From the sequence record PZ452599.1: a stretch of 51,263 nucleotides of DNA; one strand, written 5' to 3'. Position 1 is the first letter of the stretch. The number at the start of each line of letters is the position of its first letter. Under the pieces are notes generated by a model. The model did no database searches and was not told where the DNA came from. It saw nothing but the letters and a program-made list of their open reading frames with translations. The stretch is from a phage. Positions 7,599 through 51,263 of the stretch are shown here, in pieces. A program made the translations under genes and the position numbers.

Positions 7599-8018
7599 AT
7601 GGTAGATGAATTTTACACAGACGCTGAAATCATGCAGCAAATCGTAAAGTTAGCGCCGCCAATGCAACAAGTTGATCCCGATTTAATTGTGGCATGGATT
7701 GAGCTTGCTAAAGAGTTTGTTTGCAAAAAACGGTTTAAAAACTCATACCCTAAAGCGGTTGCGCTTTACACTCTTCACCTTATGACCTTAGACGGGGCAA
7801 TGAAACAGGAAGGTGAAAGCGTAGAAAGCTACTCCCGCCGCGTTGCCTCGTTCACTCTGACTGGTGAGTTTAGTCAGACGTTTGATCGAATTTCTTCCGA
7901 TACAAGCGGAAAGCAGATCCGACAAACGCCGTGGGGCAAAATGTACGAAGTGTTAAACCGTAAGCACGGTGGCGGCTTTGGCCTTGTGACTGGATTGCGC
8001 CGGAGATGCTGCCGATGA
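7599..8018 (+). CDS. putative head-tail connector / adaptor
   Basis: 139 aa; GGAG RBS; position between capsid and tail genes. Confidence 0.45.
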
Positions 8019-37240: not shown

Positions 37241-37284
37241 TTATGCCAGGTTTTTACACCTGGCTTTTAACAAAAAGTGCTATT
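37241..37284 (-). promoter_or_regulatory. motif-type promoter
   Basis: Motif 37264-37284; spacer hairpin GCCAGG...CCTGGC; CATAAT -10; upstream of gene 36824-37210. Confidence 0.5.
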
Positions 37285-39438: not shown

Positions 39439-39483
39439 AATATACCATTCAGGCGCACATAGTTTTTAACAAAAAGTGCTATT
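39439..39483 (-). promoter_or_regulatory. motif-type promoter with conserved leader
   Basis: Motif 39463-39483; TATATT -10; leader ACACCCATCGACAACAAGCGAGGA nearly identical to that at 39915-39944. Confidence 0.5.
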
Positions 39484-41248: not shown

Positions 41249-41293
41249 AATGTACCCGATCAGACGACCTGAGTTTTAACAAAAAGTGCTATT
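41249..41293 (-). promoter_or_regulatory. motif-type promoter with conserved leader
   Basis: Motif 41273-41293; TACATT -10; leader ACACACATCAAAACGAACCG; upstream of gene 40942-41214. Confidence 0.5.
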
Positions 41294-41831: not shown

Positions 41832-41860
41832 TTGACACATTAAATAGCATTATTGATAAT
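41832..41860 (+). promoter_or_regulatory. sigma70 consensus-like promoter (TTGACA, 17 nt spacer, GATAAT) for the rightward early operon
   Basis: Hexamers at 41832-41837 and 41855-41860; GGAACAAGAAAAA box immediately upstream; RBS and ATG 41889 follow. Confidence 0.6.
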
Positions 41861-42353: not shown

Positions 42354-42613
42354 AAAAGGCATTAATCAGCGTTTTGGCGGCAATGGCATTCCTGACCGGA
42401 TGTAATGGTGATGGCGCTTACGTCGATGCGCAAATGGCTAACCCTTCCGATACTTACAACGTCAGAAAACTATTTACAGTTGATGGTTGCGATGTGTACA
42501 GGTTCAGCGATAGCCGATACGTGTACTTTACCAACTGCCAGGGTAGCGCAAACTGGTCAACTAACGAAGGTAAGTCGGTTGGTCACTACCAGAACACAAC
42601 AAACGTGAAATAG
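42350..42613 (+). CDS. lipoprotein (second; candidate superinfection exclusion or surface-modifying protein)
   Basis: 87 aa; ATGA coupling; signal peptide with lipobox FLTGC (MKKALISVLAAMAFLTGC). Confidence 0.55.
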   Translation: MKKALISVLAAMAFLTGCNGDGAYVDAQMANPSDTYNVRKLFTVDGCDVYRFSDSRYVYFTNCQGSANWSTNEGKSVGHYQNTTNVK

Positions 42614-42653
42614 CACTTTTTGTTAAAACGCCAGGTGCAAAGCCTGGCATAAT
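42611..42653 (+). promoter_or_regulatory. motif-type promoter
   Basis: Motif 42611-42629 (begins with stop codon of lipoprotein gene); spacer hairpin GCCAGG...CCTGGC; CATAAT 42648-42653. Confidence 0.5.
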
Positions 42654-43072: not shown

Positions 43073-43073
43073 A

Positions 43074-43116
43074 TAGCACTTTTTGTTAAAACTCGAAAAC
43101 GATAACCAGGCATAAT
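43074..43116 (+). promoter_or_regulatory. motif-type promoter
   Basis: Motif 43074-43092; 18-nt spacer; CATAAT 43111-43116; upstream of gene 43172. Confidence 0.5.
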
Positions 43117-44141: not shown

Positions 44142-44294
44142 ATGGCTACCTGGATTTTGCTGATTCTTATGATTGATGGCGGCGTTGACCATATCGAAAT
44201 GAATAGCCAGCAATCTTGCATTGAGGCACGAGAGCAGATCAAGAACAACAACAGGTTTTATGCGTACACTCACACGCTATGTATTAAGAAATAG
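44142..44294 (+). CDS. small membrane protein (50 aa, not in ORF track)
   Basis: ATG 44142 with GAGGTGAGAG RBS; N-terminal hydrophobic helix WILLILMI; stop TAG begins next motif copy. Confidence 0.45.
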   Translation: MATWILLILMIDGGVDHIEMNSQQSCIEAREQIKNNNRFYAYTHTLCIKK

Positions 44295-44333
44295 CACTTT
44301 TTGTTAAAACTCAAATGTGGGGCCAGGTATAAT
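44292..44333 (+). promoter_or_regulatory. motif-type promoter
   Basis: Motif 44292-44310; TATAAT 44328-44333 lies in the loop of hairpin GGGCC...GGCCC; upstream of gene 44364. Confidence 0.5.
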
Positions 44334-44817: not shown

Positions 44818-45027
44818 ATGGATCAGAACAAAACAGCAAAATATAAATTCACTGACGACTACGGAGACACTATCGACGTTTATCAGCGTGGGAATCAGAT
44901 CTTTATAGATGGCACTTTCGAATATGGCCGGATGCCAGACTTTCGGGGAATACTTTCGGCAGATAGCGCGCGACGCATGGCGAACGTGTTAAATAAACTG
45001 GCGGCAAAGATTGAGGCGATGCAATGA
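44818..45027 (+). CDS. hypothetical protein
   Basis: 69 aa; tightly packed after paralog 2. Confidence 0.45.
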   Translation: MDQNKTAKYKFTDDYGDTIDVYQRGNQIFIDGTFEYGRMPDFRGILSADSARRMANVLNKLAAKIEAMQ

Positions 45028-45815
45028 AAAAATACACTTTCGAACTGTGGGGCAAGAAGTACGAATTAATCACCAGCAAGCCGATTGTTATCGTTGATCT
45101 GGACGGCACGCTATCGGAAGGATCGCATCGTTTGCATTTGCTGCCAACTGAAAACTTGCACCTTACGGAATCGTGGCGCGAGTTTAACAGGGCCGCCGCC
45201 GGAGATTCACCGATTAAAAGCACTATCGCGGTTATTAACGGTTTATGGGTGTCGGGATTTGCCATCGTCATCTTGACCGGACGCAGCGACGAGGTTCGCT
45301 ATGAAACCTGCAAATGGTTGAATGAGAACGGCGTGAAGTTTGACGAAATCATCATGCGCCGCCAGGAGGACAACCGAAAGGATACGGTTATTAAAGAAGA
45401 AGCCTTGCGCGCTATTGGCCTGGACAACATTGTTTGCGCCTTTGACGATTCGCCGAACGTGGTTAAGCACTTCCGCAGCTTGGGGATCACAACCTATCAG
45501 GTCACGGAATACGACAAGCCACACGCTCACATACAATCTCACGGCGTGGATGAATTGAAGTCAAAAATCGAATGCGAAGGCGAGCACTGTTTTAGTGTGG
45601 TTGATGGTAAATGTTTGCGTTGCGGCGTGGAATCAATCAAGATCACGAAGCGCGCCCGATTCGTCGGCAGCAAAGACAGCCTGGTCAATGCCAGCTTTAT
45701 CAAAGGCAAGGTTTATGATGTTCATAGCCATGATAAAAACCGATTCTTTTTGTGGGATGAAAAAGGTTTTGGCTGGTGCTTTAAGCATGACGACGGCGAT
45801 TTTGTTAATGCGTAA
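45024..45815 (+). CDS. HAD-family phosphatase with C-terminal zinc-ribbon / FxPGxxY-like domain
   Basis: 263 aa; HAD motif I VIVDLDGTL, motif II ILTGRSD, motif IV FDDS; C-terminal CxxC...CxxC followed by FIKGKVYDV...FLWDEKG. Confidence 0.6.
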   Translation: MKKYTFELWGKKYELITSKPIVIVDLDGTLSEGSHRLHLLPTENLHLTESWREFNRAAAGDSPIKSTIAVINGLWVSGFAIVILTGRSDEVRYETCKWLNENGVKFDEIIMRRQEDNRKDTVIKEEALRAIGLDNIVCAFDDSPNVVKHFRSLGITTYQVTEYDKPHAHIQSHGVDELKSKIECEGEHCFSVVDGKCLRCGVESIKITKRARFVGSKDSLVNASFIKGKVYDVHSHDKNRFFLWDEKGFGWCFKHDDGDFVNA

Positions 45816-45858
45816 TAGCACTTTTTGTTAAAACATCTTAACGGGCTTGCGGTATAGT
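45816..45858 (+). promoter_or_regulatory. motif-type promoter
   Basis: Motif 45816-45834; TATAGT 45853-45858 inside hairpin GGGCTT...AAGCCC; upstream of gene 45890. Confidence 0.5.
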
Positions 45859-46729: not shown

Positions 46730-47320
46730 ATGAAACGAGACATTATCATCCTTAATGGGCCTCCAGGTTGTGGAAAGGACACTATTGCAGCTTACCTAAC
46801 GGGCCATCGTTACCCTGCTGTCAAGGCGTCATTCAAACAGCCGATGTTCGATATTGCGTTTTCCATGCTGGGAGTGTACCGATACGATGAATTTATGGAC
46901 CTGTACAACGACCGAGAACAAAAAGAAAAGCCTCAAGTTATTTTGGGCGGCAAGTCACCTCGACAATTCATGATCTGGATTAGCGAGGATGTAATGAAGC
47001 CAGTTTTTGGAGATCACTATTTCGGGCGTCGAATGGTTGAAGAGATTCACGAGATGTACCGAGATTTGGCGGTTGTGATCAGTGATGGCGGATTCCCCGA
47101 AGAAATCAAACCGCTGGTTAAGGCAGGGCATGAAGTGCATATTTGCCGATTGCATCGCGACGGCTTCACGTTTGCTGGCGATTCGAGAGACTACATTGAC
47201 CTGAGCGGTTATCACTATCGAATCCATCACTATGACTTCCACTTGCAGGACGGCAAACCGGAACTGGCTGTAAACGAGATCGTCAATGCTGTCAAATGGA
47301 AACACACGCAGATTAAATAG
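46730..47320 (+). CDS. P-loop nucleotide/nucleoside-monophosphate kinase (T4 gp1 dNMP kinase-like)
   Basis: 196 aa; Walker A LNGPPGCGKDT; stop is followed by a variant motif copy. Confidence 0.55.
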   Translation: MKRDIIILNGPPGCGKDTIAAYLTGHRYPAVKASFKQPMFDIAFSMLGVYRYDEFMDLYNDREQKEKPQVILGGKSPRQFMIWISEDVMKPVFGDHYFGRRMVEEIHEMYRDLAVVISDGGFPEEIKPLVKAGHEVHICRLHRDGFTFAGDSRDYIDLSGYHYRIHHYDFHLQDGKPELAVNEIVNAVKWKHTQIK

Positions 47321-47358
47321 CACGAATTGCTAAACGCGGGGCGCAATGCCTCGCTATA
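47321..47358 (+). promoter_or_regulatory. variant motif (TAGCACGAATTGCTAAAC) followed by TATAAT
   Basis: Begins with kinase stop TAG; TATAAT at 47353-47358; upstream of gene 47391. Confidence 0.4.
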
Positions 47359-47390
47359 ATGCAAACACCAATCAACGAGAGGAAATCACA

Positions 47391-47771
47391 ATGGTTAACA
47401 TCAGAAAAATCCGCGTCGGCACTAAATTCTTAGTTACTTACGCAATTCCAGATAGCGGAATGAAGAAGGGCCAGATTGTTAAGGTTGATAGCAAAAGATT
47501 CGGAATCCCTGGTATCAATGGCTATCTAATCAATAGAGATCTTGGATTCGACGGCTTCGCTATCCGTGCGCTTGAGGGTATTGTTGCCACTCTTAAACGA
47601 ATCACTAATCATCGCGGCTGCCCAATCAAGACGATTAAAGCGCCAATAAATTACGGCAAACTGGATAATCGTCGAATCCGCCGCCTGGCGCGTAACGCGT
47701 TAAAATTCCGTGGCGTAGGCGATGATTTCTACTATGGATACAAGAGGATTGCGCGCAATGCTGGGAAATAA
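47391..47771 (+). CDS. hypothetical protein
   Basis: 126 aa from ATG 47391 (GAGAGG RBS), downstream of TATAAT at 47353-47358. Confidence 0.45.
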   Translation: MVNIRKIRVGTKFLVTYAIPDSGMKKGQIVKVDSKRFGIPGINGYLINRDLGFDGFAIRALEGIVATLKRITNHRGCPIKTIKAPINYGKLDNRRIRRLARNALKFRGVGDDFYYGYKRIARNAGK

Positions 47772-47870
47772 CAATAACGCAACGAATCCTAAGCCACCTT
47801 TTGATTTTCATTCCGCAATGATTGCGGTATTATCAATGCTACTTTTTCTTTATAGCATGAGGGCGCTACT

Positions 47871-48119
47871 ATGGTTTTTAACGCATTAAAACGACTGTTT
47901 AAGCCGGAATACCGGATCGTATTTTGCCGCGACTGTTCTACTTATCATGTGCAGCGACGCAGCTTAGGCGGCAATTGGCACTATGTTACAGATGACTTTT
48001 TCGGCATCATTGCCACTGAATTTAAGTATTACAGTGATGCTTATATGTACGTGAAGAAGCGCCACCGCTTACGCAAGTGTCGTTTTTCCGTGCTGATTCA
48101 CGTTAATGATTGTTACTGA
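47871..48119 (+). CDS. hypothetical Cys-containing basic protein
   Basis: 82 aa; GAGGG RBS; CRDC motif. Confidence 0.45.
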   Translation: MVFNALKRLFKPEYRIVFCRDCSTYHVQRRSLGGNWHYVTDDFFGIIATEFKYYSDAYMYVKKRHRLRKCRFSVLIHVNDCY

Positions 48120-48126
48120 GGTGAAA

Positions 48127-48309
48127 ATGAAAACTGGTATTATTATTCTTTTCCTGATCCTTTTCGGTAGCCATTTAACCATTAACTATGAGGGCATTAT
48201 GGCCTTTTGGGGCAACTTGATGGTTTTTGCCGCTGGTTCAATTACTGGCTACTCTGACGGGAAAAAGGACGGTGTTCGCAAGATGCTGATGGGACTTAAA
48301 CAAAAATAA
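48127..48309 (+). CDS. small membrane protein
   Basis: 60 aa from ATG 48127 (GAGGTG RBS); hydrophobic IIILFLILFG and LMVFAAGSITG segments. Confidence 0.45.
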   Translation: MKTGIIILFLILFGSHLTINYEGIMAFWGNLMVFAAGSITGYSDGKKDGVRKMLMGLKQK

Positions 48310-48320
48310 GGGGATCTGAA

Positions 48321-48611
48321 ATGGCAAACAAAACTTACCGCAAACTACTGGTTAACGCTTTTGAAAACATTGCGCAGTGTAACAAGTGGAACGACTCTAA
48401 ACACTCGCCAGTCACAATGAAGCGCGCCGGATTCAAAAATGCTCGTTCATGGGCGCGAGCTTTCGCAGCTTGCTATATGCCGGATGGTGGACTAGGAGCG
48501 ATGAACGATTTTTTGATCAACATGATAGAGGAAGCTGCGCGAGAGGATCGACCGCTGACACAGCGAGATTTTGACGACTTCGCGCGCGATGAGCTTTACT
48601 ATCTGAGCTAA
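48321..48611 (+). CDS. hypothetical protein
   Basis: 96 aa; AAGGGG RBS; stop followed by motif copy. Confidence 0.5.
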   Translation: MANKTYRKLLVNAFENIAQCNKWNDSKHSPVTMKRAGFKNARSWARAFAACYMPDGGLGAMNDFLINMIEEAAREDRPLTQRDFDDFARDELYYLS

Positions 48612-48654
48612 TAGCACTTTTTGTTAAAACTTCCGCAAGGGCATTTGATAAAGT
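48612..48654 (+). promoter_or_regulatory. motif-type promoter
   Basis: Motif 48612-48630; GATAAA-like -10 inside hairpin AAGGGCA...TGCCCTT; upstream of gene 48687. Confidence 0.45.
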
Positions 48655-48686
48655 GCCCTTATTGAAGCGAAACAGAGGAAAGCGCA

Positions 48687-48899
48687 ATGAAAATCAAAAT
48701 CACCAAAATCGACACCATCAACGGCGACGGATCAATCACTCTTGAGCAATGCGGTTTGGTTGTTGGTGATGTGCTGGAGGTTGACGGTCATTTCAGCGAC
48801 GGATCTTATTGTGTTATTGCGCCGCGTAACAGCGAGTTTATCAAGGCTGGCGATAATATTAGTGTTAACCATGACGAATGCGAGGTAGTAGAAGAATGA
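48687..48899 (+). CDS. hypothetical protein
   Basis: 70 aa; GAGGAAA RBS; downstream of motif promoter 48612-48654. Confidence 0.5.
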   Translation: MKIKITKIDTINGDGSITLEQCGLVVGDVLEVDGHFSDGSYCVIAPRNSEFIKAGDNISVNHDECEVVEE

Positions 48900-49159
48900 T
48901 CACGATTAACCTGTCAGAGCAGCAAGCGCGCATTATGTTAGCGGCCTTTGGTTGGCGAGATGATGACGGTATTCAGGCAACGGTTAAAATCCCTGAGACG
49001 GTAGCGCGTGAAGTTTTTAACCAGCTTGAACACGCATTTGTTCCTGTTGGCACTGATCAGGCAGAAACAGCGGCTTGGTTCGGAGAGAACGGATACAGAG
49101 ATCAGCAAGTCGAAAACTGGAAGCGCATAAACGAGACTATGGAGGAATCAGGTTTATGA
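48896..49159 (+). CDS. hypothetical protein
   Basis: 87 aa from ATG 48896; ATGA coupling. Confidence 0.45.
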   Translation: MITINLSEQQARIMLAAFGWRDDDGIQATVKIPETVAREVFNQLEHAFVPVGTDQAETAAWFGENGYRDQQVENWKRINETMEESGL

Positions 49160-49470
49160 TTTACATTCACTACTACCAAATCGGAACTAACGAGAACAAA
49201 AAAGAGCATCGTTTCATCCACGATGATTTTGACAAGGCAAAGGCCCAGCAACAGGTTTTAGGCGGCGTTATTCAGGCTTTTGAGCCTGTGGAAGATATTG
49301 AGTACCGCGAGCATTTAAAAGATGTTGTTATTGATGAGATCTCTTGCTTGATTGATGATATGACAAATCACGGCCCTGGTTCCCCGTGGGAAGATGCAGG
49401 ATCTGTAACGTGGGATAAGGCCAAAGTTAAGACGCTAAACAACTTTCGAGAGATTCTCGACGGTTTTTAA
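49156..49470 (+). CDS. hypothetical protein
   Basis: 104 aa from ATG 49156 (GGAGG RBS); ATGA coupling. Confidence 0.5.
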   Translation: MIYIHYYQIGTNENKKEHRFIHDDFDKAKAQQQVLGGVIQAFEPVEDIEYREHLKDVVIDEISCLIDDMTNHGPGSPWEDAGSVTWDKAKVKTLNNFREILDGF

Positions 49471-49540
49471 TTAAAAACGCATAGCCGTTAGAGCGCCTCA
49501 ATCGCATTCTAACGAGCTATTTTTCTGGTAAGGTGATTTA

Positions 49541-49669
49541 ATGGATGAGTACAAACAACCTTCGCAGTGGTGCAAAGAGAAGCAAGAAGAGGCACTGGAG
49601 CGCGGAGATGTGGAAGAAGCTATGAACTATTTCAAACTTGCGGAAGAATGGAAGGGGAGAGGATACTGA
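49541..49669 (+). CDS. hypothetical small acidic protein (42 aa, not in ORF track)
   Basis: ATG 49541 with AAGGTG RBS; stop overlaps next ATG; alternative to the RBS-less upstream extension of track ORF 49567-49899. Confidence 0.35.
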   Translation: MDEYKQPSQWCKEKQEEALERGDVEEAMNYFKLAEEWKGRGY

Positions 49670-49899
49670 TGTTCGGCATGAATGAGGCGCAATTCAACGC
49701 AGCTAAACGCCAGGCTAAAAAGTGCGGCGAGGCGATGAAAGCGGATGTGGAAAAGCGCGGGAAGTATGTTGATGAAGTAATGAAGGGCATCATTGCAGAA
49801 CACTACCAGCCAATCGCGCCAATGTTGACGATCACTCAATTCATTTGGCTATGTGGTTACTTGCGTGGACGTTGGGGGAACGCTTTCGACAGGGAATGA
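49669..49899 (+). CDS. hypothetical protein
   Basis: 76 aa from ATG 49669 (GGAGAGGA upstream); shorter form of track ORF 49567-49899. Confidence 0.45.
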   Translation: MFGMNEAQFNAAKRQAKKCGEAMKADVEKRGKYVDEVMKGIIAEHYQPIAPMLTITQFIWLCGYLRGRWGNAFDRE

Positions 49900-50061
49900 T
49901 TGACAACTCTTTCCTGATTGGTTAGCATGGCGTCGTTTACATAAGAGCGGCTTAGTCCGAACGCGTGACGCGATAGTCACACAGCAACGGCGATATGCAG
50001 GAGGTTTTTGCAATGCAAGATAATCCGTAAGACGTATCGCCTTTTTTAATGGAGATCCAAA

Positions 50062-50295
50062 ATGATTAAATACAAATTAACCGTTTCTTTCCGTGATACC
50101 GTTATTCATCCTTTCTACAATAGCTTTGTTAACAGCTTTACAGTAGAAGCGACAGAGGATCAGCTGGACGGTGACGAAACTTGCATTTCTATTGGAAATG
50201 TTGCTTACCCGATTCACAACATTACCAGCATTAAGCGTGAGGTTGTCGCTGATGAATTACAAAGTGAAGATGACGATCCGGCGAATGGGGCGTAA
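50062..50295 (+). CDS. hypothetical protein with acidic C-terminus
   Basis: 77 aa; GGAG RBS; preceded by hairpin plus T-run. Confidence 0.5.
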   Translation: MIKYKLTVSFRDTVIHPFYNSFVNSFTVEATEDQLDGDETCISIGNVAYPIHNITSIKREVVADELQSEDDDPANGA

Positions 50296-50437
50296 TTGCC
50301 AATCATGCAAACAGGAATATGAATGCGTAGTTGATGCTCTTGATGAACTGGAAGCAGTAGCAAAAGCAAAAGAGCAATCGGGCGCTAATCCTGAAACACA
50401 TCAATTTTCAATTAACCTTGTGAGGGCTTTACAATGA
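50252..50437 (+). CDS. hypothetical protein (start uncertain)
   Basis: 61 aa from ATG 50252 (GAGG 9 nt upstream); overlaps end of previous gene in another frame; ATGA-coupled to next gene; alternative starts at 50270 and 50285. Confidence 0.35.
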   Translation: MNYKVKMTIRRMGRNCQSCKQEYECVVDALDELEAVAKAKEQSGANPETHQFSINLVRALQ

Positions 50438-50658
50438 TCGCATTATCTTTCTGCATTGGTTTTATCATGGCTATCATTATCTTTTCCGTTGTCATGCGCT
50501 TTGCTTATAAGTTCGTGATTAATAAAGGTTGGTACGCTTCTGCAATCTGGAGCGAAAAACAAAAGAAATGGCTTGTACGTGGTCAATACCTGATGATCGG
50601 TAGCAAGATCCTAAATTCCATTCGAGCCAAAGATGGGAAAGTAAAATATACAGCTTAA
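50434..50658 (+). CDS. small membrane protein
   Basis: 74 aa; N-terminal TMD IALSFCIGFIMAIIIFSVV; followed by terminator. Confidence 0.5.
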   Translation: MIALSFCIGFIMAIIIFSVVMRFAYKFVINKGWYASAIWSEKQKKWLVRGQYLMIGSKILNSIRAKDGKVKYTA

Positions 50659-50662
50659 AAAT

Positions 50663-50688
50663 CACCCGCCGCACGGCGGGTTTTTTAT
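50663..50688 (+). terminator. intrinsic terminator before terS promoter
   Basis: Hairpin CCCGCCG-CAC-GGCGGG followed by TTTTTT. Confidence 0.65.
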
Positions 50689-50699
50689 TGCCCGTTGTT

Positions 50700-50708
50700 T
50701 GGTATAAT
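50700..50708 (+). promoter_or_regulatory. extended -10 promoter element (TGGTATAAT) upstream of terS
   Basis: TGnTATAAT at 50700-50708, between terminator 50663-50688 and terS RBS. Confidence 0.5.
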
Positions 50709-50736
50709 CAGGCATCTAACCAAAGGAGGATTAACA

Positions 50737-51263
50737 ATGGCTAAAAACGTTGAGCCTGCTGTAAAGGCATTAAATTTCAAAGAGTTATACAATAAAACTT
50801 ATGGCGATATTGTTACGCTAAACAACCGCCACAAGTACACGCCGGAACAGGTTTTTGATATGGCGATCCGCTATTTCACTTGGGCCGAAGAGAATCACAT
50901 CCAGGCGGCTGAAACTGCTTCCTTTCAGGGTGACGTGTACGAGAGCAGAGTTTACAAGCCTCGCGTTTTCACGGTTAACGGATTCAGCTTGTATCTCGGC
51001 GTGACTGAGGCCGCCGTAAGCAAATGGCGTAAAGAGCCTGGATTCTGCGATGTGATGGAGTTTGTTGATAAAGTAATTTACGAGCAAAAATTCCAGCTTG
51101 CGGCAAATAACATGATTAACGCTGGATTTATCGGTAAAGAGATCGGAGTAGAGAAGCCAGCAACAGTGAGCGTTGAAGCGAGCGCGGCAGCTAATGCAAG
51201 CATTGACGCAGTAACTGCCGATGAGGTGAAAGAGGCTGTGATTGATATTCTGGAGCAACTTTA
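50737..51263 (+). CDS. terS: terminase small subunit (3' end completed only if window ends are joined)
   Basis: AAAGGAGGA RBS; 175 codons to window end; final TA plus position 1 A forms TAA overlapping terL ATG; HTH-like FSLYLGVTEAAVSKW segment. Confidence 0.6.
   Translation, partial: MAKNVEPAVKALNFKELYNKTYGDIVTLNNRHKYTPEQVFDMAIRYFTWAEENHIQAAETASFQGDVYESRVYKPRVFTVNGFSLYLGVTEAAVSKWRKEPGFCDVMEFVDKVIYEQKFQLAANNMINAGFIGKEIGVEKPATVSVEASAAANASIDAVTADEVKEAVIDILEQL

What the first reader, a model, noticed from the sequence alone, without database searches (positions are those of the whole stretch)
49900..50047. Candidate small RNA or attenuator: promoter-like element, 110-nt structured region with a 5-codon mini-ORF, then terminator
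TTGACA (49900-49905) with a 17-nt spacer to TAGCAT is followed by a non-coding stretch with internal hairpins. A long stem GGCGATA...TATCGCC (49989-50041) has a loop that holds a Shine-Dalgarno-like GCAGGAGG and the ORF ATG-CAA-GAT-AAT-CCG-TAA (50013-50030), then T6. This resembles a leader-peptide attenuator or a small RNA just upstream of gene 50062.
Basis: inference. Interest (0 to 1): 0.45.

Follow-up and report, generated by a model that had tools for sequence, protein, structure and literature searches.

The report
Conserved T1-family phage small RNA
The flagged stretch is a real, previously unannotated structured non-coding RNA with its own promoter, conserved in the same genomic position in nearly all sampled T1-like coliphages (Drexlerviridae); in this phage it ends in a genuine terminator, but the 5-codon mini-ORF is an accident of sequence.

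Summary
The window is a complete Warwickvirus genome (Drexlerviridae, 99.4% identical to phage tiwna).

By sequence alone the promoter match is no better than chance. Conservation makes it credible: the -35 TTGAC lies 34-36 nt upstream of a near-invariant RNA 5' motif (CGUnnACnnAAGAG) in 44 of 45 representative relatives.

Three hairpins covary strongly:
- H1: 49948-49959
- H2: 49965-49980
- H3: 49989-50041

A covariance model of the 5' motif, H1 and H2 hits 96 of 100 related sources, once each and always on the sense strand. It also hits phage T1. It finds nothing in Rfam, E. coli genomes or HK022.

The mini-ORF is not conserved. Its ATG is ACG in tiwna, and the 17-nt insert holding it is missing from most Hanriverviruses sampled.

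The U-run after H3 occurs only in Warwick-, Hanriver- and Henuseptimavirus-like lineages. Elsewhere the last hairpin (loop ...CCGUAA) is followed by AACcAUUC and then a small ORF or a tRNA gene.

Best reading: a conserved promoter-proximal non-coding RNA module. Here it is released as a ~112-nt terminated RNA and also throttles read-through into three small genes. Its partner and function are unknown. Leader-peptide attenuation is rejected.

The parts
49900..49905 (+). -35 hexamer TTGACA
   Evidence: TTGAC is present 34-36 nt upstream of the conserved RNA 5' motif in 44 of 45 representative relatives from at least 7 genera.
49914..49921 (+). Conserved spacer motif CTGATTGG (family consensus CTGAyyGG); role unknown
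   Evidence: It is conserved inside the promoter spacer well beyond what sigma-70 needs. In other genera the TGG sits directly before the -10 hexamer, as in an extended -10.
49923..49928 (+). -10 hexamer TAGCAT
   Evidence: Relatives have TAGCAT, TAACCT, TAGATT, TAACTT, TACATT or TAGTAT at the same position.
49934..49947 (+). Predicted RNA 5' end and conserved single-stranded motif CGUUUACAUAAGAG (family consensus CGUnnACnnAAGAG). The transcription start is inferred at 49934 or 49935.
   Evidence: Invariant columns C1 G2 T3 A6 C7 A10 A11 A13 in A4. The start site is inferred from the fixed 35-nt distance to the -35 hexamer; it has not been measured.
49948..49959 (+). Hairpin H1: CGGC-loop-(U)CCG. 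It is weak in this phage (3 base pairs plus one mismatch) and 4-5 base pairs in relatives.
   Evidence: All 4 pairs show changes on both sides across the family: CGGC/GCCG, GCGC/GCGC, GCGG/CCGC, GCUC/GAGC, UGUG/CACA, ACGG/CCGU.
49965..49980 (+). Hairpin H2: GUGAC-GCGAUA-GUCAC
   Evidence: 4 of 5 pairs show changes on both sides, and 99-100% of cells are paired. RNAalifold predicts four of its five pairs independently.
49989..50041 (+). Hairpin H3, the terminator stem: 9-bp base 49989-49997 with 50033-50041, enclosing a variable inner hairpin
   Evidence: RNAalifold predicts it. 6 of 9 pairs show compensatory changes and 98.9% of cells are paired. Fold energy is -21.2 kcal/mol.
50013..50030 (+). 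Mini-ORF ATGCAAGATAATCCGTAA. Judged non-functional; it lies in and around the apical loop of a lineage-specific inner hairpin.
   Evidence: ATG is ACG in tiwna. The segment is absent from most Hanriverviruses sampled.
50025..50033 (+). Conserved unpaired motif CCGUAAGAC on the 3' side of the H3 internal loop; family consensus CCGUAA in the loop of the last hairpin
   Evidence: It occurs only once in the window with no mismatch.
50042..50047 (+). U6 tract. Together with H3 it forms an intrinsic terminator; the predicted RNA 3' end is about 50044-50047.
   Evidence: A run of 4-8 T is kept in Warwick-, Hanriver- and Henuseptimavirus-like relatives. It is absent from Pocis76, Tlsvirus, Tunavirus, Eclunavirus and Rogunavirus.
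50062..50658 (+). Downstream cargo reached only by read-through: a 77-aa ORF, a T1p56-like 61-aa ORF (50252-50437) and a DUF7299 membrane protein (50434-50658)
   Evidence: All are of unknown function.
50664..50681 (.). Strong intrinsic terminator that closes this short operon before terS (start 50737)
   Evidence: A terminator is annotated at this position in Sip, KP36, Sazh and T1.

Best explanation
This is a conserved non-coding RNA module of the T1-like phages (Drexlerviridae), not an attenuator run by a leader peptide.

Proposed mechanism in this phage:
1. Host sigma-70 RNA polymerase starts at about 49934/5 from the promoter at 49900-49928.
2. The nascent RNA carries a 14-nt conserved single-stranded 5' motif, then hairpins H1 and H2, then a long hairpin H3 that displays a conserved unpaired CCGUAAGAC.
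3. H3 plus U6 acts as an intrinsic terminator. Most polymerases, including any arriving from the upstream early genes, should stop near 50044-50047 and release a discrete RNA of about 112 nt.
4. The fraction that reads through expresses the three small genes up to the strong terminator at 50664-50681.

The element keeps its 5' motif, H1, H2 and the CCGUAA hairpin whether the cargo is a small ORF or a tRNA gene. Its 3' end is set by a terminator in this lineage and would be set by RNase P cleavage where tRNAs follow. I therefore think the RNA itself is the functional product. It would be a small stable RNA, either a riboregulator or a decoy, that presents its conserved single-stranded segments to an unidentified protein or RNA partner. 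Throttling of downstream transcription would be a secondary effect.

Shown: the anatomy, the conservation, the covariation and the loss of the mini-ORF. Inferred: the transcription start, termination, release of the RNA and any action in trans.
For: - Identity and synteny.
- The promoter sits at a fixed distance from the RNA motif in 44 of 45 representatives.
- Covariation on H1 and H2: 97-98% of cells paired against 64-70% in shuffles; covariation score 0.71-0.72 against at most 0.13 when the partners are slid.
- Covariation on H3: 6 of 9 pairs compensatory, and the helix is predicted independently by RNAalifold.
- Last hairpin in the other genera: 100% paired, all 5 positions change on both sides, against 71 +/- 5% in shuffles.
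- Model R1 hits 96 of 100 sources, always on the sense strand, and once in the window. It also hits T1 at 7623-7676 in the unannotated gene 58-57 gap.
- Indels of 1, 2, 4 and 17 nt rule out coding.
- tRNA genes start about 10 nt after the last hairpin in Rogunaviruses and in L076 and L095.
- About half of the Weberviruses sampled show a hairpin plus U-run at H2, just before the ribosome-binding site, so terminator-like ends may have arisen more than once.
- No Rfam family, tRNA or host homologue explains the element.
Against: - No transcript data exist. The start site, termination efficiency and RNA accumulation are all inferred.
- In Tunavirus, Tlsvirus and Eclunavirus nothing obvious defines a 3' end. 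The last hairpin is followed by AACcAUUC and a ribosome-binding site, so there the element is formally a 5' UTR.
- The 5' motif has four freely variable positions (CGUnnACnnAAGAG), which is unusual for a contiguous base-pairing seed.
- No complementary target was found in the phage genome. Host targets could not be searched.
- Weberviruses lack the CCGUAA hairpin altogether.
Confidence: 0.55

Rival explanations
1. Purely cis-acting 5' leader. The RNA modifies the transcribing polymerase, or blocks Rho, so that transcription from this promoter proceeds through untranslated or tRNA cargo and through downstream terminators. This would be protein-independent processive antitermination in the manner of HK022 put, or anti-Rho action like the rrn leaders.
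For: - The element is promoter-proximal, with two covarying hairpins directly behind the start.
- Its position is conserved ahead of a strong terminator and the terminase and late genes.
- The cargo can be untranslated tRNA genes, which are the kind of transcript exposed to Rho.
- The element is independent of cargo identity.
Against: - Model R1 finds nothing in HK022.
- The late modules of T1-like phages each have their own promoter-like element, including an extended -10 directly before terS, so read-through is not obviously needed.
- Three genera maintain a canonical terminator inside the element itself. That is easier to explain if stopping there is the point.
- No sense-strand boxA was found by eye.
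Confidence: 0.15
2. Classical Hfq-type trans-acting sRNA. The 5' single strand is a seed that pairs with a host or phage mRNA, and the terminator hairpin with its U-tail binds Hfq.
For: - It has its own promoter, a 5' conserved single strand, internal hairpins, and a terminator with U6 in this lineage.
- AAC repeats lie between H2 and H3.
Against: - The seed is interrupted by four variable positions.
- Most genera have no U-tail.
- No phage-internal target was found.
- No Hfq or target data exist.

This is a narrower version of the best explanation, so its probability is contained within it.
Confidence: 0.2
3. Leader-peptide transcription attenuator. Translation of the 5-codon ORF inside the terminator hairpin would control termination.
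For: A ribosome-binding-like GGAGG lies 8 nt upstream of the ATG, and the ORF sits inside the terminator hairpin. JLBYU41 keeps an ORF there.
Against: - ATG is ACG in the 99.4%-identical phage tiwna.
- The whole segment is absent from most Hanriverviruses sampled and is replaced by ATG-free hairpins in Pocis76 and L037.
- The ATG lies in the apical loop of a covarying inner stem.
- There is no conserved alternative pairing, and no amino-acid biosynthesis genes follow.
Confidence: 0.02
4. A DNA-level site (pac, replication origin or operator) rather than an RNA.
For: It is single-copy, intergenic and close to the terminase genes. The pattern of conserved and variable positions at the start resembles protein contacts one helical turn apart. 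There is also a conserved spacer motif.
Against: - Compensatory changes keep three to four helices intact while their sequences drift. Double-stranded DNA sites do not do this.
- The orientation is fixed relative to transcription.
- The hairpin is followed by a T-run only on the sense strand.
Confidence: 0.04

Closest known systems
Lambda PR' - 6S RNA - tR' (the Q-antitermination leader); comparison from general knowledge
   Same: A constitutive sigma-70 promoter drives a short structured transcript that ends at an intrinsic terminator just upstream of packaging and late genes. There is a conserved motif inside the promoter spacer, which is where lambda has its Q-binding element.
   Different: No Q-like protein was recognised among the 15 ORFs scanned against PHROGs. 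The terminator is missing in most genera. terS has its own promoter-like element downstream. There is no sequence similarity.
HK022 put RNA (cis-acting, protein-independent antitermination); comparison from general knowledge
   Same: Two hairpins in the nascent RNA downstream of a promoter.
   Different: The covariance model finds nothing in HK022. There is one copy per genome rather than two. Antitermination activity is untested.
Phage T4 RNAC and RNAD, small stable RNAs transcribed from the tRNA region with unknown roles (PMC3014915)
   Same: A phage small RNA that in several Drexlerviridae lineages is co-transcribed with tRNA genes and would be released by tRNA processing. Function is unknown.
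   Different: No sequence relationship has been shown. In this window there are no tRNA genes, and the RNA ends at a terminator.
GraL, short transcripts from termination in the E. coli greA leader (PMC2836576, abstract seen)
   Same: A leader in which most transcripts stop at an internal terminator to give small RNAs, while the remainder form the mRNA.
   Different: That is a host gene, with a different sequence and structure.
Leader-peptide attenuators (trp, his, pheA type); comparison from general knowledge
   Same: A terminator hairpin just upstream of genes, with a tiny ORF nearby.
   Different: The ORF is not conserved, carries no regulatory codons, has no alternative pairing, and is followed by unrelated genes.

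Membership tests
Leader-peptide transcription attenuator | A conserved, translated leader ORF | tested here: not met
   ATG is ACG in tiwna. The ORF segment is deleted in most Hanriverviruses sampled, and Pocis76 and L037 have no ATG.
Leader-peptide transcription attenuator | Mutually exclusive antiterminator and terminator pairings that are conserved | tested here: not met
   The only candidate, the H2 loop GCGAUA pairing with the H3 3' strand UAUCGC, does not covary. BabyEgg and IsaakIselin change the H3 strand without changing the H2 loop. RNAalifold gives a single structure.
Leader-peptide transcription attenuator | An intrinsic terminator directly before the regulated genes | tested here: met
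   H3 plus U6 at 49989-50047 lies 14 nt before the start at 50062.
Any Rfam 15 family (riboswitches, ribozymes, known sRNAs, leaders) | A covariance-model match at or near the gathering score | tested here: not met
   No hits at the gathering score in the whole window. Nothing in the element at E up to 10.
Intrinsic (Rho-independent) terminator | A stable G+C-rich stem followed at once by a U-run | tested here: met
   9-bp base stem, -21.2 kcal/mol for the hairpin, then U6. The stem covaries. The simple scanner misses it only because of its limit on loop length.
Sigma-70 promoter | -35 and -10 hexamers with a 16-18-nt spacer, conserved in position | tested here: met
   10 of 12 matches with a 17-nt spacer. 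TTGAC is at a fixed distance in 44 of 45 relatives. Activity itself cannot be tested here.
Hfq-dependent trans-acting sRNA | Its own promoter and a terminator hairpin with a U-tail of at least 5-6 | tested here: met
   Met in this phage. Not met in Tuna-, Tls-, Ecluna- and Rogunavirus relatives.
Hfq-dependent trans-acting sRNA | A contiguous conserved single-stranded seed with identifiable targets | tested here: inconclusive
   The 5' 14 nt are conserved but have 4 variable positions. No phage target was found. Host targets could not be searched.
Hfq-dependent trans-acting sRNA | Binding to Hfq and regulation of a target | not testable with these tools
   Needs CLIP, RIL-seq or genetics.
HK022 put-type antiterminator RNA | Sequence and structure similarity to putL or putR | tested here: not met
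   R1 run with filters off on the whole HK022 genome gave a best score of 5.3 bits at E 4.4.
HK022 put-type antiterminator RNA | Makes the transcribing polymerase resistant to terminators, acting in cis | not testable with these tools
   Needs read-through reporters or in vitro transcription.
Lambda Q / PR' late-leader system | A Q-family antiterminator gene in the genome | tested here: inconclusive
   None of the 15 ORFs scanned against PHROGs matched one; most fall in families of unknown function. Not every ORF was scanned.
tRNA or tmRNA | A cloverleaf recognised by ARAGORN | tested here: not met
   No genes found in the window.

The most novel reading that the evidence does not exclude
The element is a new class of phage riboregulator shared by the sampled Drexlerviridae lineages. 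One version is a protein-independent RNA that reprograms the transcribing host polymerase (put-like or anti-Rho), so that a single early promoter can drive untranslated or tRNA cargo. The other version is a released decoy RNA whose invariant CGUnnAC and CCGUAA segments capture a host factor or a defence nuclease.
Probability: 0.15. Interest if true: 0.8.

Novelty: new member of a known kind. Interest (0 to 1): 0.55.

Why it matters
T1-like phages are classic, abundant coliphages and Klebsiella phages that are now used in therapy collections. Their gene regulation is still almost unknown, and no non-coding RNA is annotated at this locus in any record examined here.

This element is among the most conserved non-protein features of the family; its 5' motif is near-invariant, while the neighbouring protein is only 31-57% identical between the genera compared. 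It sits at a fixed position ahead of the terminase region, has clean covariation support, and is absent from Rfam.

It gives a defined, mutable target for asking how these phages time or insulate expression of their pre-terminase cassette (three hairpins, two invariant single-stranded motifs, and a terminator present in only some lineages). It also allows a test of whether a lytic siphovirus uses a small RNA against its host. At the least it should be annotated, and the N-terminally extended ORFs called across it in some records should be corrected.

Tried and rejected
- **Rfam:** the gathering-score scan of the whole window and a permissive scan of 49600-50400 found nothing relevant.
- **tRNA and tmRNA:** none.
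- **Host mimicry or host origin:** blastn against 5,426 E. coli genomes found no match.
- **Self-targets:** the complement of the 5' motif and copies of CCGTAAGAC occur no more often than chance.
- **Relationship to HK022 put:** none.
- **Loose pattern scan of IMG/VR:** it mostly returned chance matches. Model R1 confirmed only Drexlerviridae-sized contigs.
- **Literature:** seven searches found no description of this RNA or of transcript maps for T1-like phages. The TLS re-annotation lists only three sigma-70 promoters, none of them here.
- **Downstream and upstream proteins:** PHROGs, Pfam, PADLOC and PDB sequence searches gave only families of unknown function.
- **Ideas considered by eye and dropped:**
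  - tRNA-Tyr anticodon-loop mimicry by CCGUAA; variants CCAUAA and CUAUAA break it.
  - An RfaH ops-like GGCGGTA; it is found only in Webervirus.
  - A lambda boxA match; it lies on the wrong strand.
  - Pairing of the 5' motif with the downstream translation start; seen in Sazh only, with no covariation.
  - A CGU/ACG helix enclosing H1; both sides are invariant, so it cannot be tested, and it is broken in three genera.
  - RNase III processing of H3; the stem is too short in Hanriverviruses.
- **MAFFT alignments of the last hairpin** were misaligned, so I counted those pairs with a script instead.

Full report
**What the window is.** The 1.86 kb around the finding is 99.4% identical to Escherichia phage tiwna (Drexlerviridae, Tempevirinae, Warwickvirus). 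The window is a whole genome that starts at terL and ends inside terS. The finding lies in a 162-nt gap that is unannotated in every record I opened. On one side is a 76-aa gene (49669-49899; phrog_303, the homologue of T1 gene 59). On the other is a 77-aa ORF (50062-50295). After that come a T1p56-like ORF, a DUF7299 membrane protein, a strong terminator (50664-50681) and terS (start 50737).

**Checking the observation.**
- The promoter scan scores TTGACA-17-TAGCAT at 10 of 12, the best in 47000-51263. Promoter-like sites are not enriched there (6 against 7.2 +/- 2.5).
- My genome-wide count of sites with at least 10 of 12 matches is 15, against 12.3 +/- 3.4 in Markov shuffles.
- The fold energy is only moderately unusual (z = -2.7 and -2.1).

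On this sequence alone, then, the case is weak. Rfam gives nothing at gathering scores or at E up to 10, ARAGORN finds no tRNA, and E. coli genomes hold nothing similar.

**Comparative evidence.**
- blastn with the gap sequence finds 131 phage records. About 60 are 95% or more identical; about 70 lie at 60-90%, including sampled records from Hanrivervirus, Henuseptimavirus and Hafnia phage Pocis76.
- The upstream protein occurs in 835 records spanning the Drexlerviridae.
- Opening the region after it shows the same element every time, in Tlsvirus Sazh, Webervirus KP36 and NJS1, Tunavirus SH2, Eclunavirus Ec_L1, Yersinia phage YP10S2 and Rogunavirus Jk06.
- The same holds for 80 IMG/VR loci.

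The shared anatomy is a TTGAC -35, a spacer holding CTGAyyGG, a TAnnnT -10, and 5-8 nt later CGUnnACnnAAGAG, hairpin H1, AAC, and hairpin H2. The 3' domain is more variable. Its last hairpin carries CCGUAA at the 3' end of its loop. The -35 lies 34-36 nt upstream of the C of CGU in 44 of 45 representatives, which puts the start site at that C or G.

**Structure.**
- On a plain MAFFT alignment of 21 diverse sequences, the H1 and H2 pairs are 97.3% paired against 70% in shuffles. 8 of 9 pairs change on both sides. The covariation score is 0.71, against at most 0.13 for slid partners.
- A covariance model (R1) hits 96 of 100 sources, always on the sense strand and at the syntenic place. It hits once in the window, at 49934-49985 with 66 bits. 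On its 58 distinct sequences pairing is 98.2% and the score is 0.72.
- T1 itself carries the element at 7623-7676, in the unannotated gap between genes 58 and 57.
- For the window's own lineage, RNAalifold independently predicts four of H2's five pairs and all of H3. H3 has 6 of 9 pairs with compensatory changes and 98.9% pairing.
- In the other genera the last hairpin is a 5-bp stem that is 100% paired, with changes on both sides at all five positions. Shuffles give 71 +/- 5%.
- Indels of 1, 2, 4 and 17 nt exclude a conserved reading frame on either strand.

**The mini-ORF.** It sits in a 17-nt segment that is absent from most Hanriverviruses sampled. In the 99.4%-identical phage tiwna its ATG is ACG, and CCG-TAA is CCA-TAA. 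Pocis76 and L037 have different inserts without an ATG. The segment folds into an inner hairpin whose stem differs in sequence but stays paired, and the ATG lies in and next to its apical loop. I found no conserved alternative pairing. Leader-peptide attenuation is therefore rejected.

**The terminator is specific to some lineages.** H3 with a run of 4-8 U occurs in Warwick-, Hanriver- and Henuseptimavirus-like phages. In Pocis76, Tlsvirus, Tunavirus (including T1), Eclunavirus and YP10S2, the last hairpin is followed by AACcAUUC and a ribosome-binding site. In Rogunaviruses and two deeper lineages (L076, L095), tRNA genes begin about 10 nt after it. Weberviruses have a short form that ends at H2. 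In about half of those sampled, H2 is followed by UUUUAUU just before the ribosome-binding site. The conserved part is therefore the promoter with the 5' motif, H1 and H2, and usually the CCGUAA hairpin. The cargo varies.

**Interpretation.**
- The element survives whether an ORF or a tRNA follows it, so control of translation cannot be its common role.
- The 13-14 unpaired nucleotides at the 5' end argue against a simple 5'-hairpin stabiliser.
- Nothing points to a riboswitch-style switch.
- The 3' end is set by a terminator in this lineage, and would be set by RNase P where tRNAs follow.

I therefore favour a released small stable RNA whose invariant single-stranded segments are the working surface. 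In this phage the terminator would also limit read-through into the three small genes.

I put about 0.85 on [quoted passage not shown], and about 0.35-0.4 on action as a separate RNA. The composite statement gets 0.55.

The main rival is a purely cis-acting leader that makes polymerase resistant to terminators or Rho (0.15). It fits the promoter-proximal hairpins and the tRNA cargo. It does not fit the maintained internal terminator, and it finds no similarity to put. A DNA-level site is very unlikely given the compensatory changes.

**Comparison with what is known.** The architecture resembles lambda PR'-6S-tR' and the terminated greA leader (GraL, PMC2836576). In the lineages with tRNA cargo it resembles the T4 tRNA-region RNAs C and D, whose roles are also unknown (PMC3014915). 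It is not a member of any Rfam family. The TLS re-annotation paper lists three sigma-70 promoters and 21 terminators but nothing in this gap (PMC11447400). I found no paper that describes the element.

**Verdict.** This is a genuine and ordinary-looking but undescribed phage RNA family, a new member of the known kind "small structured phage RNA or terminated leader". The mini-ORF and attenuator reading is refuted. Function remains open and is directly testable.

Noticed in passing
window, 23 sites, e.g. 42610-42628, 43073-43091, 44291-44309, 45815-45833, 48611-48629 (+); 37265-37283, 39464-39482, 41274-41292 (-): The 19-nt repeat ATAGCACTTTTTGTTAAAA occurs 23 times against 2.4 expected, mostly in the orientation of the neighbouring ORFs. 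At most sites an extended -10-like sequence (TGGCATAAT, GGTATAAT, GGTACATT) follows about 20 nt downstream, often with a G+C-rich inverted repeat in between, and then a CA-rich leader (CAUCRACAACAA...). These look like the phage's own activator-dependent promoters. They match the 'direct repeats' reported for TLS (PMC11447400), whose role that paper left open.
   Followed up: partly
window 49942-49949, minus strand: The reverse complement of the RNA 5' motif reads GCCGCTCTTATGT and contains CGCTCTTA, the lambda nut boxA sequence as I recall it. It is on the non-transcribed strand and is not kept in other genera (GCCTCTTA), so it is probably chance.
   Followed up: partly
L102:1693-1768, L103:1722-1876, L021:1503-1578, L076 ~1610-1800, L095 ~1720 onward: In Rogunaviruses and two deeper Drexlerviridae lineages the same promoter and leader drive tRNA genes, which start about 10 nt after the CCGUAA hairpin. 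ARAGORN calls tRNA-Arg(CCU) in the Rogunaviruses, plus tRNA-Trp in L103. For L076 and L095 the tRNA genes were read by eye only.
   Followed up: partly
L006:698-1000 (damhaus), L007:696-998 (slyngel), L008:697-999 (pSf-1): These GenBank records call the downstream gene about 70 nt longer, starting at an ATG inside the terminator hairpin H3. That start is not conserved (the window has an in-frame stop), so these are probably wrong start-codon annotations.
   Followed up: partly
window 50664-50708: A strong hairpin terminator (ACCCGCCGCACGGCGGGT flanked by T- and A-runs, called on both strands) is followed at once by an extended -10-like TGGTATAAT (50700-50708), about 30 nt before terS. terS therefore seems to have its own promoter rather than depending on read-through.
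   Followed up: no
window 50062-50295 and 50252-50437: The 77-aa ORF and the T1p56-like ORF overlap by 44 nt. They share an N-terminal pattern (MIKYKLTVSF and MNYKVKMTIR) that is also seen in the first downstream ORF of other genera. The 77-aa gene may be a diverged duplicate of the T1p56-like gene. Different records annotate different starts for the second ORF.
   Followed up: no
window 45024-45815: The early region encodes a polynucleotide kinase/phosphatase (phrog_415), as in T1. In T4 this enzyme repairs tRNA cut by host anticodon nucleases (from general knowledge). No RNA ligase was looked for.
   Followed up: no
window 41832-41860 (+), 26233 (-), 23161 (+): These are the three best sigma-70 consensus matches in the genome (11 of 12; the first two are TTGACA-17-GATAAT, the third TTGACA-18-TAAAAT). 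The one at 41832 sits at the head of the rightward block of small early genes.
   Followed up: no
L053, L055-L067, L084 (Webervirus), about 40-58 nt into the element: In about half of the Weberviruses sampled, H2 (GCCCC/GGGGC) is followed by UUUUAUU and then a GGGG ribosome-binding site. This is terminator-like, and the CCCC strand could alternatively pair with the ribosome-binding site.
   Followed up: no
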